IMG/VR virus record: IMGVR_UViG_3300025011_000016
Direction: 5' to 3' (one strand)
DNA length: 64,000 nucleotides
Origin: a virus
Taxonomy: Duplodnaviria > Caudoviricetes
Shown: piece by piece, positions 5,672 to 58,063 of the stretch
Position numbering within the stretch: the stretch's first letter is position 1
Layout: the number at the start of each line of letters is the position of its first letter
Translations under genes and position numbers: made by a program
Notes under the pieces: generated by a model
The model's input: the letters and a program-made list of their open reading frames with translations, nothing else
Told to the model about the DNA's origin: nothing
The model's database searches: none

Positions 5672-6442
5672 ATGGAAAGGTGGTATTATATGTTATATAA
5701 TAGACATAACTACTTAAATAAGAATATTGAATTTCTAGTATCTAATGAGATAATTGAATATGATATGCAATCGGCAGGTTTCAATATATTAAAGTATTAT
5801 AAATTAGTTAGTGATGATAAATTAAATTTTTTAGAATCTCTTGGTAAGAAAGAAAGACATGTTCAAATCGGATTGTATCAAAGGGCTGATAAAGTATTAG
5901 CTAGACAACTTAATGACAAATTTATTGAAACACGTAAATGGTTCTTTGAACAAAATGAGTTAATTGATGAAGATATTTTATCTATAAAGAAAGATGCAGT
6001 CATTACTTTCAAACGATGTTTAGTAACAGAACTAGATAATATTAAGTTTATTGAAAAGAATATATATACATCATATTACTATTTAAATAAATTGGAATTT
6101 TATTATAACAATAATGTCATTCATGTCAAAGGTATTAATGATGATTTGTTGAAATTACATTCAGAGTATATGCTAGACTTTTTACATATGTTTTTTCGAA
6201 TGAATGAAACTATTAAGGTTAAAAAGATCATTGAGTATTTAAAAGAGTTTTCACATTATTATAAAAATAGACATCTTGAAATTGGTTATTATAGAGAGTT
6301 GAATAAACAATCATTATTTAAATTAAATGATAGTCTATTTAATTCCCCATTAGGAATACGTGATATTGGTGACGTTGGTGAGATAAATATAGATTATAAT
6401 TATCTAAATTATCTTATTCCTTTGATCGGCATATTAATTTAA
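5672..6442 (+). CDS. small family-B DNA polymerase palm-like protein
   Basis: EYDMQSAGF (motif A-like) and LSIKKDAV (motif C-like). Confidence 0.45.
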   Translation: MERWYYMLYNRHNYLNKNIEFLVSNEIIEYDMQSAGFNILKYYKLVSDDKLNFLESLGKKERHVQIGLYQRADKVLARQLNDKFIETRKWFFEQNELIDEDILSIKKDAVITFKRCLVTELDNIKFIEKNIYTSYYYLNKLEFYYNNNVIHVKGINDDLLKLHSEYMLDFLHMFFRMNETIKVKKIIEYLKEFSHYYKNRHLEIGYYRELNKQSLFKLNDSLFNSPLGIRDIGDVGEINIDYNYLNYLIPLIGILI

Positions 6443-41792: not shown

Positions 41793-44615
41793 ATGAAAAT
41801 TGTACCTAATAAACAACAAAAGAAAGCTGTTATTGAATCAGTGAAATGGTTAAAGAGTGGTTATAAACAAGTCTTTGAAATATCAGGTCCTCCAGGATCA
41901 GGTAAAACCTTTATAGTTTATTTAATACGAAAGGCAATGAAGCTAAATCCCTTGGATGTTCTATTTATGGCATATGTAGGAAAAGCTACAATGGCTTTGA
42001 CATTACAAGGTAATAATGCAAAGACAATGCATAGTTCTATTTATGATAGGGTTGATTTACCTAAGATGGATGAGAATGGTAAGTTTATTTTAAAAAATGG
42101 TAGAATACTTACAACTCCTGGTTTTGTTAAGAAAAAATCTTTACCTGATAATATAAAACTTATAGTGGTGGACGAAGGTTCTATGATTAATGAAAAATAC
42201 GCTTTAGATATTTTAAGCTTCAAGTTACCAGTTTTAGTGCTCGGGGACTTAAATCAGCTTTTTCCTATCTTTGGGAAACCTTATTTCTTAAGACAACCTG
42301 ATATTATATTAACAGAAATTATGAGACAGGCTAAAGATGATCCTATTATTCATTTAAGTCAAAAGGCAATTAATGGTGAAATTATTGAGATAGGAAAATA
42401 TGGTGATAGATGTTTTGTTATTAATAAAGAAGATATCACAGACAATATGCTTACAAAAACAGATATCGTTATTTGTGGTAAAAATAAGACACGGGATCAT
42501 ATAAATAAATATGTTAGAGAAGAAATATATAAAATAGACAAGCCTTATCCAGTAAAAGGTGAGAAATTAATATGTAGACAAAATAATTGGGATATGTCTG
42601 TCGATGAAGGTAAAATATTCTTAGTTAATGGTCTTGTAGGTTACGTTGAAGAAACACATTTAGACACTTATAATAAAAGATCTTTATGTATTGATTTTAG
42701 GCCTGAGTTTTTAAAAGAAACTTGTTTTGAAAGAGTAGCAATTGATTCTTTTATGAGTCACGTTGCATAGTAATATGCAATTGCAACTACTTTAATTGCG
42801 GGAAACTCCTTAGAACTTTATCTACTAATGTAACATGATAAAGATTGGACAATCTGCAGCCAATGATCTATTCATAATAGATTTAGGTCCAACGACTAGA
42901 ATGGGAAAGTTCGTAGGGCTCAAGTGAGTGGGTGAGACTCCCTTAAATCGAAATGGGTGGCCCCATTATAATAATTAGTATAATGGGTGAAGATATAGTC
43001 TGTGCTTTAAGGAAACTTAGAGAATAACTAACCGTAAGTCTTAATAACTATTCTGTATATAATTATATTATACAGTTAACAAATAATATAAGAACGGGGG
43101 TGATATAAAATGATTAAGACTTTTAAAACAAGAATACGACCGAATAAAGAACAAGAGGTATATTTAAATAAGTGCTTTGGGTATAGAAGGTTTATATATA
43201 ATAATGCGTTAGAATACTTTAATACTCTTTTAAAATATAATAATAATGTTATTGATAAGGATTTAAAGAAGTTCTTTGATAAATTTGATTATATTACTCA
43301 TATATATTCTAAGAAAGAAAAGGGACCGGGATTTGAATGGACTAAAGAATATAATAAGTCCATAAAGAATGAAGTGGCTAGTGATGTTAACTTAGCTGTT
43401 AATAGATTTTTTAAAGATATTAAAAATAAGAAGCGTTGTAAACTGCATTTTAAAAGAAAGGTTCATGGAAATGGATCGTTTAGAATATATAGTAAGCATA
43501 AAACTAATGTTATGATTCTTGATATGAAATTATTCTCTTTTATTATTAATAGAGAATTTGGTCATATGTCATTAAAAACATATGAGGACATAAGTTTCTT
43601 ATATCATCATGATATAAAAACAATGACTATTAGTATGAAGAATTTTAAATATTATGTCTCATTTACTTATGAAATAGATGTTCCAAAGCATAAGCATGAG
43701 AAAGATACCATAGGTATAGATTTAGGGATACATAATCCGGTAGTTTGTTTTGATGGAAAAGATATCATAAATCCTAAATTTCCGAAAGGAATTATTAAGA
43801 AACTAGAGAAGAGAGCCGATAAATTTTCAACGATAGTTTCTAAGAAGAAATATGATAAATGTAATCCATCAAAGAACTATATAAAAGCGAGAACCAAGCT
43901 TAATTATATTCATGGTAAGATAGTGAATATTAGAATGGATTATATTCAGAAGGTTTCAACCTTCTTAACTAAGACTTATAGAAATATCGTAGTTGATGAA
44001 TTTAGTTTTAAAGAATTACTAACAGAGTCTGATGGTATTAAACGTATTAATAGAGGTATACATAGAGTAGGTGCCTTTACGTTTATGCAAGTGTTAAAAT
44101 ATAAATGTCACTTTTACGGCAGTGAATATATTTTAGCCGAACCTAATAGTACCATTACATGCTCTGAATGTAATCATAAACTTAAAACTAAGTTGAAGTT
44201 ATCCCAAAGAGTCTTTAATTGTCCTGATTGTGGATATATAGATGATAGGGATAATAATGCGGCTATTAATATTTATAAGTCATATAAGAATCTTTATTAA
44301 CTAACGTAAATAGAGATTTCGCCGTTGGTCGGACGGTTTAAAGAACCTTGACGGTTAAGTTATTGTGGTATCTAACGAATACTACTAACACGACAGTATA
44401 AGCATTTATTTACACCATATGAACAGAGAGATAATAAACGTAGCTATTATAATAAATTTGAATTTGCCAACGCAATAAGCGTTCATTTATCACAAGGATC
44501 ACAATATAATACAGTTTTAATATATAATGAAAGAATGGGAGATAAAGAGTATTATAAGAAATGGTTATATACAGCAATATCGAGAGCGGTATCCGGATTA
44601 GTATTGGCCGTTTAA
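41793..44615 (+). CDS. RecD/Dda-like SF1B helicase; exons 41793-42746 and 44397-44615, about 390 aa
   Basis: GPPGSGKT, VVDEGSMI, LGDLNQL, LTEIMRQ; exon 2 supplies FANAISVHLSQGSQY and LYTAISRA. Confidence 0.9.
43110..44300 (+). CDS. tnpB: TnpB RNA-guided endonuclease (IS605 OrfB family)
   Basis: N-terminal KTFKTRIRPNKEQ HTH; RuvC GIDLG, VVDEF, DRDNNAAINI; CSEC...CPDC Zn finger. Confidence 0.93.
   Translation: MIKTFKTRIRPNKEQEVYLNKCFGYRRFIYNNALEYFNTLLKYNNNVIDKDLKKFFDKFDYITHIYSKKEKGPGFEWTKEYNKSIKNEVASDVNLAVNRFFKDIKNKKRCKLHFKRKVHGNGSFRIYSKHKTNVMILDMKLFSFIINREFGHMSLKTYEDISFLYHHDIKTMTISMKNFKYYVSFTYEIDVPKHKHEKDTIGIDLGIHNPVVCFDGKDIINPKFPKGIIKKLEKRADKFSTIVSKKKYDKCNPSKNYIKARTKLNYIHGKIVNIRMDYIQKVSTFLTKTYRNIVVDEFSFKELLTESDGIKRINRGIHRVGAFTFMQVLKYKCHFYGSEYILAEPNSTITCSECNHKLKTKLKLSQRVFNCPDCGYIDDRDNNAAINIYKSYKNLY
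44300..44396 (+). ncRNA. putative omegaRNA scaffold / IS605 right end (5' limit uncertain, may extend into tnpB)
   Basis: Nearly identical block at 56285-56381; hairpins GCCGUU/GACGGU and GUGGUAU/AUACUAC. Confidence 0.65.
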
Positions 44616-55506: not shown

Positions 55507-55790
55507 AGATGATACGAATATGATTTAAATCATATTCGTATCATCTTTATCTTCCTCTATATAGACATCTTCACATTTTAAACCTCTAATTAACATACTC
55601 TCAAATATATCATCGGGAATTTCATTTACCAAGTATTTATTATATGAGTTGAGTTTACAACCGGCTTCTACATCTTTGACACCTATGAATTAGTTCATTC
55701 ATTAACATATCAGCTCCTTTATTTATATGTAAACACTTTTTTATAGTATAATGAAAACATTTTATTAATTGAGACATTATAAAGGAGGAT

Positions 55791-56381
55791 TCATATTGAG
55801 TCTCGTTGCATAGTAATATGTAATTGTAACTACTTTAATTGCGGGAAACTCCTTAGTGCTTAAAACACTTTTAAAGTAACAAAGTTTAAGATTGGACAAT
55901 CCGCAGCCAAAGTTATTATTTAATAACGAGGCTCAACGACTATCCCAATGGTACTAAAATGTACATTAGGAGTAGGGCTCAAGTGAGTGGGTGAGATTCC
56001 CTTAAATCGAAAAGGGTAGCCCCATTATTATAATGGGTGAAGATATAGTCTGTGCTTTAAGGAGACTTAGAGATATAACTTAACCGTAAGTAAGTCTTAA
56101 TAATTCATTCTTAATAAGATATTATTATAGTTATAACAAATAATATAAGAAGGGGGTGACGATAAATGTTTAAAACTTTTAAATACATCTGACTAAAAAA
56201 GCTATGTATTGACACGAAACTTATAAATAATGGCGATAACCAAGCCTATTAATAATATTTATAAGTTGTAAAAATCTTTATTAACTAGCGTAAATAGAGA
56301 TTTCGCCGTTGGTCGGACGGTTTAAAGAACCTTGACGGTTAAGTTATAAGTGGTATCTAACTAATACTACTAACACGACAG
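55791..56381 (+). mobile_element. non-autonomous IStron-like group I intron (591 nt, tnpB deleted) between the SD and start codon
   Basis: 5' end, core and 3' end are homologous to 42747-44396; residual tnpB ends (ATGTTTAAAACTTTTAAA ... AATATTTATAAG...AATCTTTATTAA). Confidence 0.88.
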
Positions 56382-56385
56382 GAAT

Positions 56386-58063
56386 ATGTCTATTACTAAA
56401 CAGGCTAGAAAACAAATGGAATTATTAATTTATTCAGTATTTACAGCTTTAGATCCAACTGGTTCTAATACTGCTAAATATAAAGAATTATTTGGTAAAA
56501 TGAATGATACTCAATTTGATAAATTCTTCAAAGATTTCTTTAAAGAGGAAGATGAGTATCTTATATTAGACGTTATTGATTATGAGTTAAATCTTCAAAT
56601 GGAAGATGTAGAAAGAGCTGCAAAGATTCTTGATGTACCTTTATTCGAAAAAGTTGCAATGCCATTTATTAACAACAATACAGAAAATCCTGTTGTTACT
56701 CAATATGAAGTTCCGGTTGGTTACATTAACTTGAAACGGGTTCAACAAATATTAGCTAAAAAAAATACTACATCTACAGAAATATCAACACGTTCTGCTA
56801 TAACAGGACAAGTTGTTGGTAAGGATAAAAATGCCAGAGATTCAGATCAGGAGAATTTTGCTCTTGTCACTTTAAATGCTACGAACACATTACGTGAGCT
56901 TTTGGGTTATGTTGCTTAGCCCCTATATACGGTAACGTATATAGCAAACTTCTTTAATTGCAGGAAATTCCTTAGAGCTTATTATATGAAGATTGGATAA
57001 TCTGCATCATATTTTCTAATGATTAAAATATTTTCTTACTAATAAATATACAATATTTTAAAGGATGTGAATTATAAAAATGTATATAGTCATTCGTAAA
57101 GATAGAGAAATATTTAAACTTGTAACATATCCTAAAGTCAAACCTGATACTTATGAAGTTAGTAATTATGGTAATATTAGAAATTTAAAAACTGGCAAAT
57201 TAGTAAAATTATTTCCCGATACAAAAGGTTATCCTTTTGCAAATCTTATGTATAAAAAATCCATTGCTCGTAGTGTTAATATCCATAGGTTGGTAGCGTG
57301 GGAATTTGTAGATGGATATGATATAGATCGAGGGAGAACTAATGTTAATCATCTGGACAGCGATCCTACTAATAATTATTATGAAAACCTTGAATGGGTT
57401 ACAACTAAAGAAAATAATCAACATGGTATTAAACATGGTAAGATTAGATTTGGTGCAGGTGGTAGTCTAAATTATAAAGCTAGATATAATGAAGAATTTT
57501 GTTCGTAAACTATGTCCATACATTGAAAAAGGACTCACTCAAATGGAAATAATGCATATTTACGGTTATAAAACAAGAAAAGAAAATAAAAGTTTATATT
57601 CTTTAATAGATGGAATTTACTGGGGTGTGTGGAGAGAGGTATCAAAAGAATTTAATATTAATATAAAACAAGAAAAATGTTCAACGACTATCCTTTAGAT
57701 GTGAAATTCATCATTAGGAGTAGGGCCTAAGTAGGTGGGTGAGACTCCCTTAAATCGAAATAAGAAGCATCTTATATAAGATGATGATATAGTCTTGTAT
57801 CCTATATAACTATAGGGAAGTTCATAAGAGAACTGCATAGATTAACGAACTATGTGAAAGTATCGCCCAGGAGTGATGACCTTGTGATGAAAAATCAAAT
57901 GTATGCTAGTATAGCTCAAAAAGGATATGTATCACTAGATGAACTACCGAACGATGTTGCCAATAAAACAACGCTGAATACAATTGATGTGCATCTTATT
58001 GGCTTAGGTATTAAAAGCGATTTAATCACTCAAGGATTATTAGTTAGAAAGACTATGAAATAA
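56386..58063 (+). CDS. rpoB: RNA polymerase beta-like C-terminal subunit; exons 56386-56907 and 57866-58063, about 239 aa
   Basis: VPVGYINLKRVQQ, TGQVVG, TLRELLG|PRSDD match the bacterial beta C-terminus (VGYMY.LKL, TLQEMLTVKSDD). Confidence 0.82.
56908..57865 (+). mobile_element. group I intron (958 nt) carrying an HNH homing endonuclease gene
   Basis: P1 GGGU/GCCC; P/Q before and R/S after the ORF; 3' G at 57865. Confidence 0.9.
57080..57698 (+). pseudogene. NUMOD4-HNH homing endonuclease, frameshifted near 57497-57500
   Basis: YEVSNYGNIR, IHRLVA..F, VNHLD....NN...NLEW; the C-terminal part continues in another frame after a TTTT run. Confidence 0.75.

What the first reader, a model, noticed from the sequence alone, without database searches (positions are those of the whole stretch)
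43023..44364. Long-range helix that loops out tnpB overlaps the omegaRNA, suggesting a splice-versus-guide conformational switch
Seen: AATAACTAACCGTAAG (43023-43038) complements CTTGACGGTTAAGTTATT (44347-44364) with small bulges. In the second copy ATAACTTAACCGT (56075-56087) is a perfect 13-nt complement of ACGGTTAAGTTAT (56335-56347). This pairing brings the distant terminal G back to the ribozyme core, yet its 3' strand lies inside the presumed omegaRNA scaffold. Inference: splicing and omegaRNA folding are mutually exclusive, in line with the published intron/guide antagonism in bacterial IStrons. Here a specific helix can be proposed.
Basis: partly seen in the sequence, partly recalled or inferred. 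Interest (0 to 1): 0.7.

Follow-up and report, generated by a model that had tools for sequence, protein, structure and literature searches.

The report
Loop-closing helix of a phage IStron
The reported pairing is real, but it is the already described "IR stem" that closes the loop holding the tnpB gene in a self-splicing intron/transposon hybrid (IStron); it only partly competes with the guide-RNA fold, so it is a good example of a known design and not a new switch.

Summary
Observation confirmed. A 1,650-nt IStron (42747-44396) splits a helicase gene of an uncultured groundwater jumbo phage. It consists of a group I ribozyme, tnpB and a right end. The segment straight after P9 (43023-43038) pairs with 44347-44364. 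In copy 1 the core is 6+6 bp around a one-base bulge. In the tnpB-less copy 2 it is a perfect 13-14 bp. Full-length partition functions predict it at P 0.6-1.0 in all five family members. Three unrelated TnpB-IStrons and the experimentally studied C. botulinum IStron have a helix at the same place with unrelated sequence.

This is the "IR stem" of Tourasse et al. 2014. In the C. botulinum element its 3' strand is the published 18-20-nt minimal splicing determinant and the base of the last guide-RNA hairpin. The helix-versus-guide principle is therefore already in the literature, and this scan noted it earlier in a Staphylococcus phage IStron (e1-1961208).

Here the geometry differs. The 3' strand lies 33-45 nt before the terminal G. 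Eight of its 13 bases are predicted to form two weak 4-bp guide-RNA helices, which cost only 3-5 kcal/mol to open. The other predicted guide-RNA hairpins survive helix formation. A decisive RNA-only switch is not supported. No RNA data and almost no covariation exist. Interest is low to moderate.

The parts
42747..43022 (+). Group I ribozyme core (P1 to P9) of IStron copy 1; 5' splice site after TTGAT (42746|42747); P9 hairpin 43005-43022
   Evidence: RF00028 80.8 bits, E 2e-20 at 42738-43022. P1 pairs GAU|UC with GAGUC, with a U-G pair at the splice site. The exon 1 frame ends on a codon boundary.
43023..43038 (+). 5' strand of the IR stem, directly after P9 and overlapping the GAAUAA motif
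   Evidence: The position matches Tourasse's description of the IS component starting after a GAAUAA-type motif.
43110..44300 (+). tnpB (396 aa), looped out by the helix
   Evidence: Pfam HTH_OrfB_IS605, OrfB_IS605 and Cas12f1-like_TNB. Best solved relatives are ISDra2 TnpB structures.
44289..44337 (+). Predicted guide-RNA hairpins SL-A (44289-44318) and SL-B (44321-44337). The SL-B loop GUCG (44328-44331) is a candidate pseudoknot partner of CGAC (44391-44394).
   Evidence: RNAalifold on five copies and RE-only folds. The pseudoknot is inferred by analogy with 10.1101/2023.11.20.567912. It shows no covariation.
44347..44364 (+). 3' strand of the IR stem (core 44351-44363). In RE-only folds GGUU (44353-56) pairs with AACC (44344-47) as SL-C, and GUUA (44359-62) pairs with UAAC (44386-89) as the base of SL-D.
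44365..44385 (+). Terminal hairpin SL-D upper stem (GUGGUAU / AUACUAC), between the helix and the 3' splice site. It probably also corresponds to the IS200/IS605-type subterminal palindrome of the right end.
   Evidence: One compensatory pair (G-C to A-U) and one G-U to G-C change in L006. The palindrome role is inferred from PMC4227781.
44386..44396 (+). 11-nt tail ending in the terminal G (44396). ACA (44393-95) can pair with UGU (43001-03) as P9.0, and it overlaps the candidate pseudoknot strand CGAC.
   Evidence: The boundary is shown by contigs of other copies diverging after 44396 and by the in-frame exon 2. P9.0 is inferred.
44397..44615 (+). Exon 2 of the helicase gene (UvrD_C_2 domain). 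Its first bases would be the TnpB guide.
   Evidence: PF13538, 43.7 bits. Exon 1 (41793-42746) matches AAA_30/AAA_19.
55791..56381 (+). IStron copy 2, a 591-nt form without tnpB that keeps the ribozyme, both helix strands (56075-56087 and 56335-56347) and about 150 nt of right end
   Evidence: RF00028 86.3 bits, alignment of the two copies, helix P about 1.0.

Best explanation
The pairing is the IR stem of an IS200/IS605-type (group A-like) IStron.

What it is. It is a peripheral extension of the P9 domain. It closes a loop of about 1.3 kb that holds tnpB and the 5' two thirds of the right end. It places the terminal hairpin, the 11-nt tail and the terminal G beside the ribozyme core, so the second splicing step can use G44396.

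What it shares with the guide RNA. The same right end very probably encodes the TnpB guide-RNA (omegaRNA) scaffold, so the 3' strand serves two RNAs. In the guide-RNA fold, four of its bases close a small hairpin (SL-C) and four form the base of the last stem-loop (SL-D). These alternatives are weak. In an unprocessed transcript at equilibrium the long-range helix wins.

What sets the balance. Splicing versus guide formation is more likely decided by three things. The first is TnpB binding. The second is 5' processing of the scaffold, which would cut the 5' strand away. The third is the pseudoknot (GUCG-CGAC) competing with P9.0 next to the splice site.

Shown: the helix, its conservation of position across unrelated IStrons, its predicted dominance, and the overlap in position with the right end.

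Inferred: that it is needed for splicing here, the omegaRNA fold, the pseudoknot, and any regulatory role.
For: - Helix at the quoted coordinates.
- P 0.6-1.0 in 1.65-kb partition functions of all five family members and in the mini copy.
- A 13-14 bp perfect run is rare in shuffles.
- Three TnpB-IStrons with only about 30% TnpB identity (L012, L208, L215) have a strongly predicted helix from just after P9 to the right end, with unrelated sequence: 9 bp at -109..-101, 22 bp at -67..-46, and 18 bp at -27..-10.
- L208 repeats the order helix, hairpin, 11-nt tail ending ACAG.
- Phage c-st IStrons, and the C. botulinum BKT015925 plasmid element that fits the published CboIStron, have a 14-16 bp IR stem whose 3' strand sits at -20..-7. 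That stretch is the published minimal 18-20 nt for splicing.
- Tourasse et al. describe exactly this IR stem, after a GAAUAA-type motif, in all IStrons.
- RE-only consensus fold and the energetics of competition.
Against: - Within the family there is no compensatory change in the helix. There is one wobble-compatible change and one bulge-creating deletion.
- The five copies are close paralogues, so conservation alone says little.
- Copy 1 by itself is not above chance.
- The guide-RNA fold rests on thermodynamic prediction with a single covarying pair. No Rfam family, sequence-related intron-less element or RNA data was available.
- In the C. botulinum element, sequence upstream of the last 18-20 nt is dispensable for splicing. 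A helix strand placed 33-45 nt upstream, as here, might therefore not be essential either.
Confidence: 0.65

Rival explanations
1. Strong form of the first reader's idea. The helix is the decisive toggle. The RNA adopts either the splicing fold (helix formed) or the guide fold (SL-C and the SL-D base formed), and this choice by itself sets RNA fate.
For: - Eight of 13 bases of the 3' strand are used by alternative pairs in RE-only folds, with P 0.6-0.95.
- In C. botulinum the base of the last guide-RNA stem-loop controls fate. That base is made of IR-stem 3'-strand bases by my analysis.
Against: - The competing helices are 4 bp each. Freeing the strand costs 3.3-4.7 kcal/mol, against a net gain of 6-13 kcal/mol for the long-range helix.
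- SL-A, SL-B and the upper stem of SL-D coexist with the helix.
- Those 8 alternative pairs show no covariation.
- Mortman and Sternberg argue against toggling between conformations in the system they studied.
Confidence: 0.2
2. The complementarity acts at the DNA level. It is an inverted repeat used in transposition or in recombination that deletes the ORF, and the RNA pairing is incidental.
For: - ORF-less IStrons arise by deletion between repeats flanking the ORFs in BcISt1 (PMC4227781).
- A tnpB-less copy exists here (copy 2).
Against: - The deletion in copy 2 does not run from repeat to repeat. It keeps the tnpB start region and about 150 nt of right end.
- IS200/IS605 elements move as single strands through subterminal hairpins and not through long-range inverted repeats (established knowledge).
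- No Y1 transposase is found in the 100-kb record. The only hit is below cut-off and has no HUH motif.
- Unrelated IStrons keep the position but not the sequence, as expected for an RNA helix.
Confidence: 0.05
3. Chance complementarity in A+T-rich DNA.
For: - Runs of 7-9 complementary bases are common in shuffles of these segments.
- Copy 1 alone does not exceed them.
- Duplex-energy shuffles were not discriminating.
Against: - A 13-14 bp perfect run in copy 2 and L003 has p of about 0.0005-0.0015.
- The position is fixed directly after P9 in five copies and in four unrelated IStron lineages.
Confidence: 0.03

Closest known systems
IR stem of IStrons (Tourasse, Stabell and Kolsto 2014, PMC4227781; first drawn for CdISt1 of Clostridioides difficile)
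   Same: It is a helix formed by inverted repeats that flank the ORF region. It starts right after the P9 domain and a GAAUAA-type motif, and it encloses the IS genes in a peripheral loop. Group A stems are short with balanced composition. This one has a 13-bp core with 4 G-C pairs.
   Different: No P9.1/P9.2 hairpins lie between P9 and the 5' strand here, whereas they are present in the c-st IStrons. It is slightly longer than the 6-10 bp quoted for group A. The host is a jumbo phage, and no tnpA or tnpA remnant was seen.
CboIStron of Clostridium botulinum BKT015925 (Zedaveinyte et al., 10.1101/2023.11.20.567912; Mortman and Sternberg 2026, PMC13521648)
   Same: The right end serves both the intron and the TnpB guide RNA. 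The base of the last guide-RNA stem-loop shares bases with the intron structure. A candidate pseudoknot strand overlaps the bases next to the 3' splice site.
   Different: It is IS607-type (TAM TGGG, terminal CGG, serine TnpA). Its IR 3' strand sits at -20..-7 and equals the minimal splicing determinant. Here the strand sits at -45..-33, upstream of a separate terminal hairpin. Nothing here has been tested experimentally.
ORF-bearing group I introns of phages (homing-endonuclease genes held in peripheral loops closed by a stem)
   Same: A long-range stem closes a loop with a protein gene so that the ribozyme can fold.
   Different: The cargo is an RNA-guided nuclease. Its guide scaffold is in part inside the loop and in part made of the closing stem.

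Membership tests
IStron, group A (IS200/IS605-type) | Group I (IA2-like) ribozyme at the 5' end of the element | tested here: met
   RF00028 at 80.8 bits for copy 1 and 86.3 bits for copy 2. The subclass was not determined.
IStron, group A (IS200/IS605-type) | IS605-type ORF B (TnpB) downstream of the ribozyme, inside the intron | tested here: met
   Three TnpB Pfam domains. The splice sites enclose the ORF.
IStron, group A (IS200/IS605-type) | Insertion 3' of a T-rich pentanucleotide such as TTGAT, with the U-G pair inside P1 | tested here: met
   The flanks are TTGAT (copy 1, L008), AGGAT (copy 2), ATGAT (L003) and TAGAT (L006). U-G is the third pair of a 6-bp P1.
IStron, group A (IS200/IS605-type) | 3' terminus TCAG | tested here: inconclusive
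   The element ends in ACAG in all five copies and in L208 and L215. This is close to the quoted TCAG but not identical.
IStron, group A (IS200/IS605-type) | Y1 transposase (ORF A) or a remnant of it | tested here: not met
   There is no ORF A in the element. The only Y1_Tnp hit in the 100-kb record is below cut-off (17.6-18.6 bits) and lacks an HUH motif. Many published group A copies also lack ORF A, so this is not disqualifying.
IR stem of IStrons | Inverted repeats flanking the ORF region, with the 5' arm directly after the P9 domain and a GAAUAA-type motif, predicted to pair in the RNA | tested here: met
   The definition is from PMC4227781.
IR stem of IStrons | Support from compensatory base changes | tested here: inconclusive
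   Within the family there is one G-U-compatible change and one bulge. Across unrelated IStrons the position is kept with different sequence.
TnpB omegaRNA scaffold | Consecutive stem-loops upstream of the guide, with the first one pairing to the scaffold 3' end as a pseudoknot | tested here: inconclusive
   SL-B, SL-C and SL-D are predicted, and GUCG/CGAC is a candidate pseudoknot. Only one pair covaries. There was no Rfam match and no nhmmer match to 80 other TnpB loci.
TnpB omegaRNA scaffold | A mapped RNA bound and processed by TnpB | not testable with these tools
   No RNA run holds the sequence.

The most novel reading that the evidence does not exclude
Here the helix strand lies upstream of a separate terminal hairpin, and the helix is predicted to be far more stable than the local alternatives. 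It could therefore keep the ribozyme half and the guide-RNA half together after TnpB has processed the scaffold's 5' end. Exon ligation could then proceed in trans. In this IS605-type phage IStron, guide maturation and splicing would then not be strictly exclusive, unlike the published model.
Probability: 0.07. Interest if true: 0.6.

Novelty: new member of a known kind. Interest (0 to 1): 0.3.

Why it matters
IStrons must serve three functions with one right end, and experiments exist only for one IS607-type element. This phage family offers an IS605-type layout in which the loop-closing helix, the last guide-RNA hairpin and the splice-site tail are physically separate. Their contributions could therefore be mutated apart. 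The 591-nt natural mini copy would make a convenient assay substrate.

The analysis also gives a structural reading of published data. The 18-20-nt "minimal splicing determinant" of the C. botulinum IStron coincides with the 3' strand of its IR stem.

As a discovery, however, the helix and the antagonism are both already described.

Tried and rejected
- **Exact-pattern scans for more copies.** Viral contigs gave none. Metagenome contigs gave 119 hits, all chance matches in unrelated G+C-rich DNA; BLAST back found no true copy.
- **nhmmer.** A profile of the right end against 80 viral TnpB loci found nothing significant.
- **Rfam on 60 distant TnpB loci.** No introns were reported. A simple P7-motif screen then found three real IStrons that RF00028 misses.
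- **TnpB-based locus searches.** These returned only relatives at about 30% identity, so the family has only five distinct copies to compare.
- **Duplex-energy shuffle test.** It was not discriminating in A+U-rich RNA and was replaced by the perfect-run test.
- **Direct repeat.** A copy of the 5' strand inside the SL-A loop, which would give a three-strand switch as in group B IStrons, is not significant.
- **Covariation in the L215 family.** The IR core is an invariant palindromic A/U run with one uncompensated mismatch, so it is uninformative.
- **RNA evidence.** No RNA holder is listed. The contigs laid were DNA only.
- **Weak Y1_Tnp hit in ORF 5672-6442.** It is below cut-off and has no HUH motif.
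- **The genome search on the 248-kb ENA contig.** That record is not held.

Full report
**Anatomy**

The window (29.7% G+C) is part of a 100-kb IMG/VR record of an uncultured virus, estimated 42% complete. Public runs that hold the stretch are groundwater metagenomes.

At 41793-42746 an AAA_30/AAA_19 helicase reading frame is interrupted after TTGAT. A group I ribozyme follows (RF00028, 80.8 bits, 42738-43022). Next comes a 396-aa TnpB gene (43110-44300) with three TnpB Pfam domains, and then a 96-nt untranslated right end. The element ends at G44396.

Exon 2 (44397-44615) continues in frame and is a UvrD_C_2 domain. Contigs from other copies diverge exactly after 44396. The intron is therefore 42747-44396, 1,650 nt.

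A second copy (55791-56381, 591 nt) has lost nearly all of tnpB. It keeps the ribozyme, the tnpB start region and about 150 nt of right end.

TnpB homologues at 83-99% identity led to three further copies in related groundwater phage contigs:
- L008, in the same helicase gene;
- L003;
- L006, in a DNA ligase gene.

**The observation**

The 5' strand begins at the base after the P9 hairpin (43005-43022). The core of the 3' strand (44351-44363) lies 33-45 nt before the terminal G.
- Copy 2 and L003 have a perfect 13-14 bp helix.
- L006 has one G-U pair.
- Copy 1 and L008 lack one U in the 5' strand, which leaves a bulged A.
- In the metagenome, most paralogous copies carry the extra T (table 4).

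A perfect run of this length is rare in dinucleotide shuffles (1/2000 and 3/2000). The interrupted helix of copy 1 is not significant on its own. Whole-element partition functions nevertheless predict the pairing across 1.3 kb at P 0.89, about 1.0, about 1.0, about 1.0 and 0.6.

The AAG/CUU extension "with small bulges" holds in copy 1, copy 2 and L008, but not in L003 or L006.

**What it is**

Tourasse et al. (PMC4227781) state three things about IStrons:
- In all of them the IS part starts after the P9 domain and a GAACGA/GAAUAA-type motif.
- The ORF region is flanked by inverted repeats predicted to form an "IR stem".
- The stem is 6-10 bp with balanced composition in group A and 15-34 bp A/U-rich in group B.

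Copy 1 reads ...GAG-AAUAA-CUAACCGU, so the motif and the position fit exactly.

I tested the generality independently. Rfam reported no intron in 60 distant TnpB loci. A screen for the P7 motif then found three real IStrons (L012, L208, L215). Their TnpBs are only about 30% identical to this one.

All three have a strongly predicted helix from just after P9 to the right end, with unrelated sequence. L208 repeats the layout seen here: helix 3' strand, then a hairpin, then an 11-nt tail ending ACAG. The feature is thus conserved as a structure and not as a sequence.

**Relation to the published antagonism**

Zedaveinyte et al. and Mortman and Sternberg worked on an IS607-type C. botulinum IStron. 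They found:
- The last 18-20 nt of the right end suffice for splicing.
- Removing upstream guide-RNA structure raises splicing.
- The 3' pseudoknot strand is needed for splicing, while mutating its upstream partner stimulates splicing.

I fetched the IStrons of phage c-st. I also fetched the 98%-identical element on plasmid NC_015417.1, which that paper names as the plasmid carrying the CboIStron. It is the one near-identical match in that plasmid. It has IS607 tnpA and tnpB, the TGGG flank and a terminal CGG.

In this element a 14-bp IR stem joins the bases after GUGAAUAA to positions -20..-7. The published minimal splicing determinant is therefore the 3' strand of the IR stem plus a 7-nt tail. 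In an RE-only fold the same bases form the 3' side and base of the last stem-loop.

So the principle "loop-closing helix versus guide-RNA fold" is already contained in published results, even if described in other words.

**How strong is the competition here?**

RE-only folds of the five copies and their RNAalifold consensus give four stem-loops:
- SL-A (44289-44318);
- SL-B (44321-44337);
- SL-C (AACC 44344-47 with GGUU 44353-56);
- SL-D, with base GUUA 44359-62 / UAAC 44386-89 and upper stem 44365-71 / 44379-85.

The SL-B loop GUCG can pair with CGAC (44391-94). This matches the "nexus plus pseudoknot, three consecutive stem-loops" description of TnpB guide RNAs. Only the upper stem of SL-D shows a compensatory change.

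Eight of the 13 helix bases are used by SL-C and the SL-D base. Freeing them costs only 3.3-4.7 kcal/mol, whereas forming the long-range helix yields a net 6-13 kcal/mol. With the helix formed, SL-A, SL-B and the upper stem of SL-D remain.

At the level of secondary structure the two folds are therefore only partly exclusive. Without protein the intron-side helix is predicted to dominate.

A second overlap resembles the experimentally validated one. The candidate pseudoknot strand CGAC overlaps ACA (44393-95), which can pair with UGU (43001-03) as P9.0 next to the terminal G. This is inference.

TnpB binding would also separate the helix strands, as would 5' processing of the scaffold. The published work proposes both.

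**Limits**

- No RNA run holds the sequence.
- The family has five close copies, and the 3' strand is invariant.
- No intron-less relative with an alignable right end was found.
- The catalytic Glu column of RuvC-II is Asp in this TnpB family, so nuclease activity is not assured.

**Verdict**

The helix is a known feature of a known class of element, seen here in an IS605-type, tnpA-less phage member with a slightly different layout. Nothing supports a decisive RNA-only switch.

Noticed in passing
window 42738-43022 versus the whole-window Rfam scan: The whole-window gathering scan listed 14 group I introns but not this one. A local scan then scored it at 80.8 bits. The window therefore holds at least 15 introns, and filtered scans undercount them.
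   Followed up: partly
L012:940-1500, L208:1040-1500, L215:975-1500: Three TnpB loci have clear group I introns upstream of tnpB, with P3/P4, P6, J6/7 and P7 motifs and split host genes. RF00028 does not report them even at E<=1. IStrons in phage and metagenome data are probably under-detected by Rfam-based screens.
   Followed up: partly
window 55781-56400: The mini IStron sits between a Shine-Dalgarno sequence (AAAGGAGGAU) and the ATG at 56386 of a 177-aa gene. Splicing would restore a normal 6-nt spacing, so the intron may gate translation initiation instead of interrupting a reading frame.
   Followed up: no
window 42743-42761; 55787-55806; L003 and L006 left ends: The sixth base of the internal guide sequence (GAGUCA versus GAGUCU) covaries with exon position -4: U-A in copy 1, L003 and L008; G-U in copy 2; A-U in L006. 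The P1 loop of copy 2 is also complementary to its own 3' exon over 6 bp, a possible P10. Each copy's ribozyme is thus fitted to its own insertion site.
   Followed up: partly
window 43995-44000 (TnpB residues 296-297): All four TnpBs of this family have VVDEF where relatives have xxEDL. The column of the RuvC-II catalytic Glu holds Asp, followed by Glu. Activity could be altered.
   Followed up: partly
L310 (ENA contig of 240,610 bases): A different IStron family (TnpB about 30% identical) also splits an AAA_30/UvrD_C_2 helicase gene in another phage-sized contig. The same kind of gene has been invaded independently.
   Followed up: no
window 42984-43047 and 44328-44391: In the groundwater contig sets, summed depth over the P9/5'-strand bin and the last right-end bin is about 17-19 times that of the unique flanks (5705 and 5112 against 296 in run X1). 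Many more copies or relatives share these two segments than the five recovered.
   Followed up: no
L008:2490-2520: The helicase-gene copy in contig L008 has the same left flank as copy 1. Its 3' flank shares only AUAAG and then differs. The gene downstream of the element is arranged differently in that phage.
   Followed up: no
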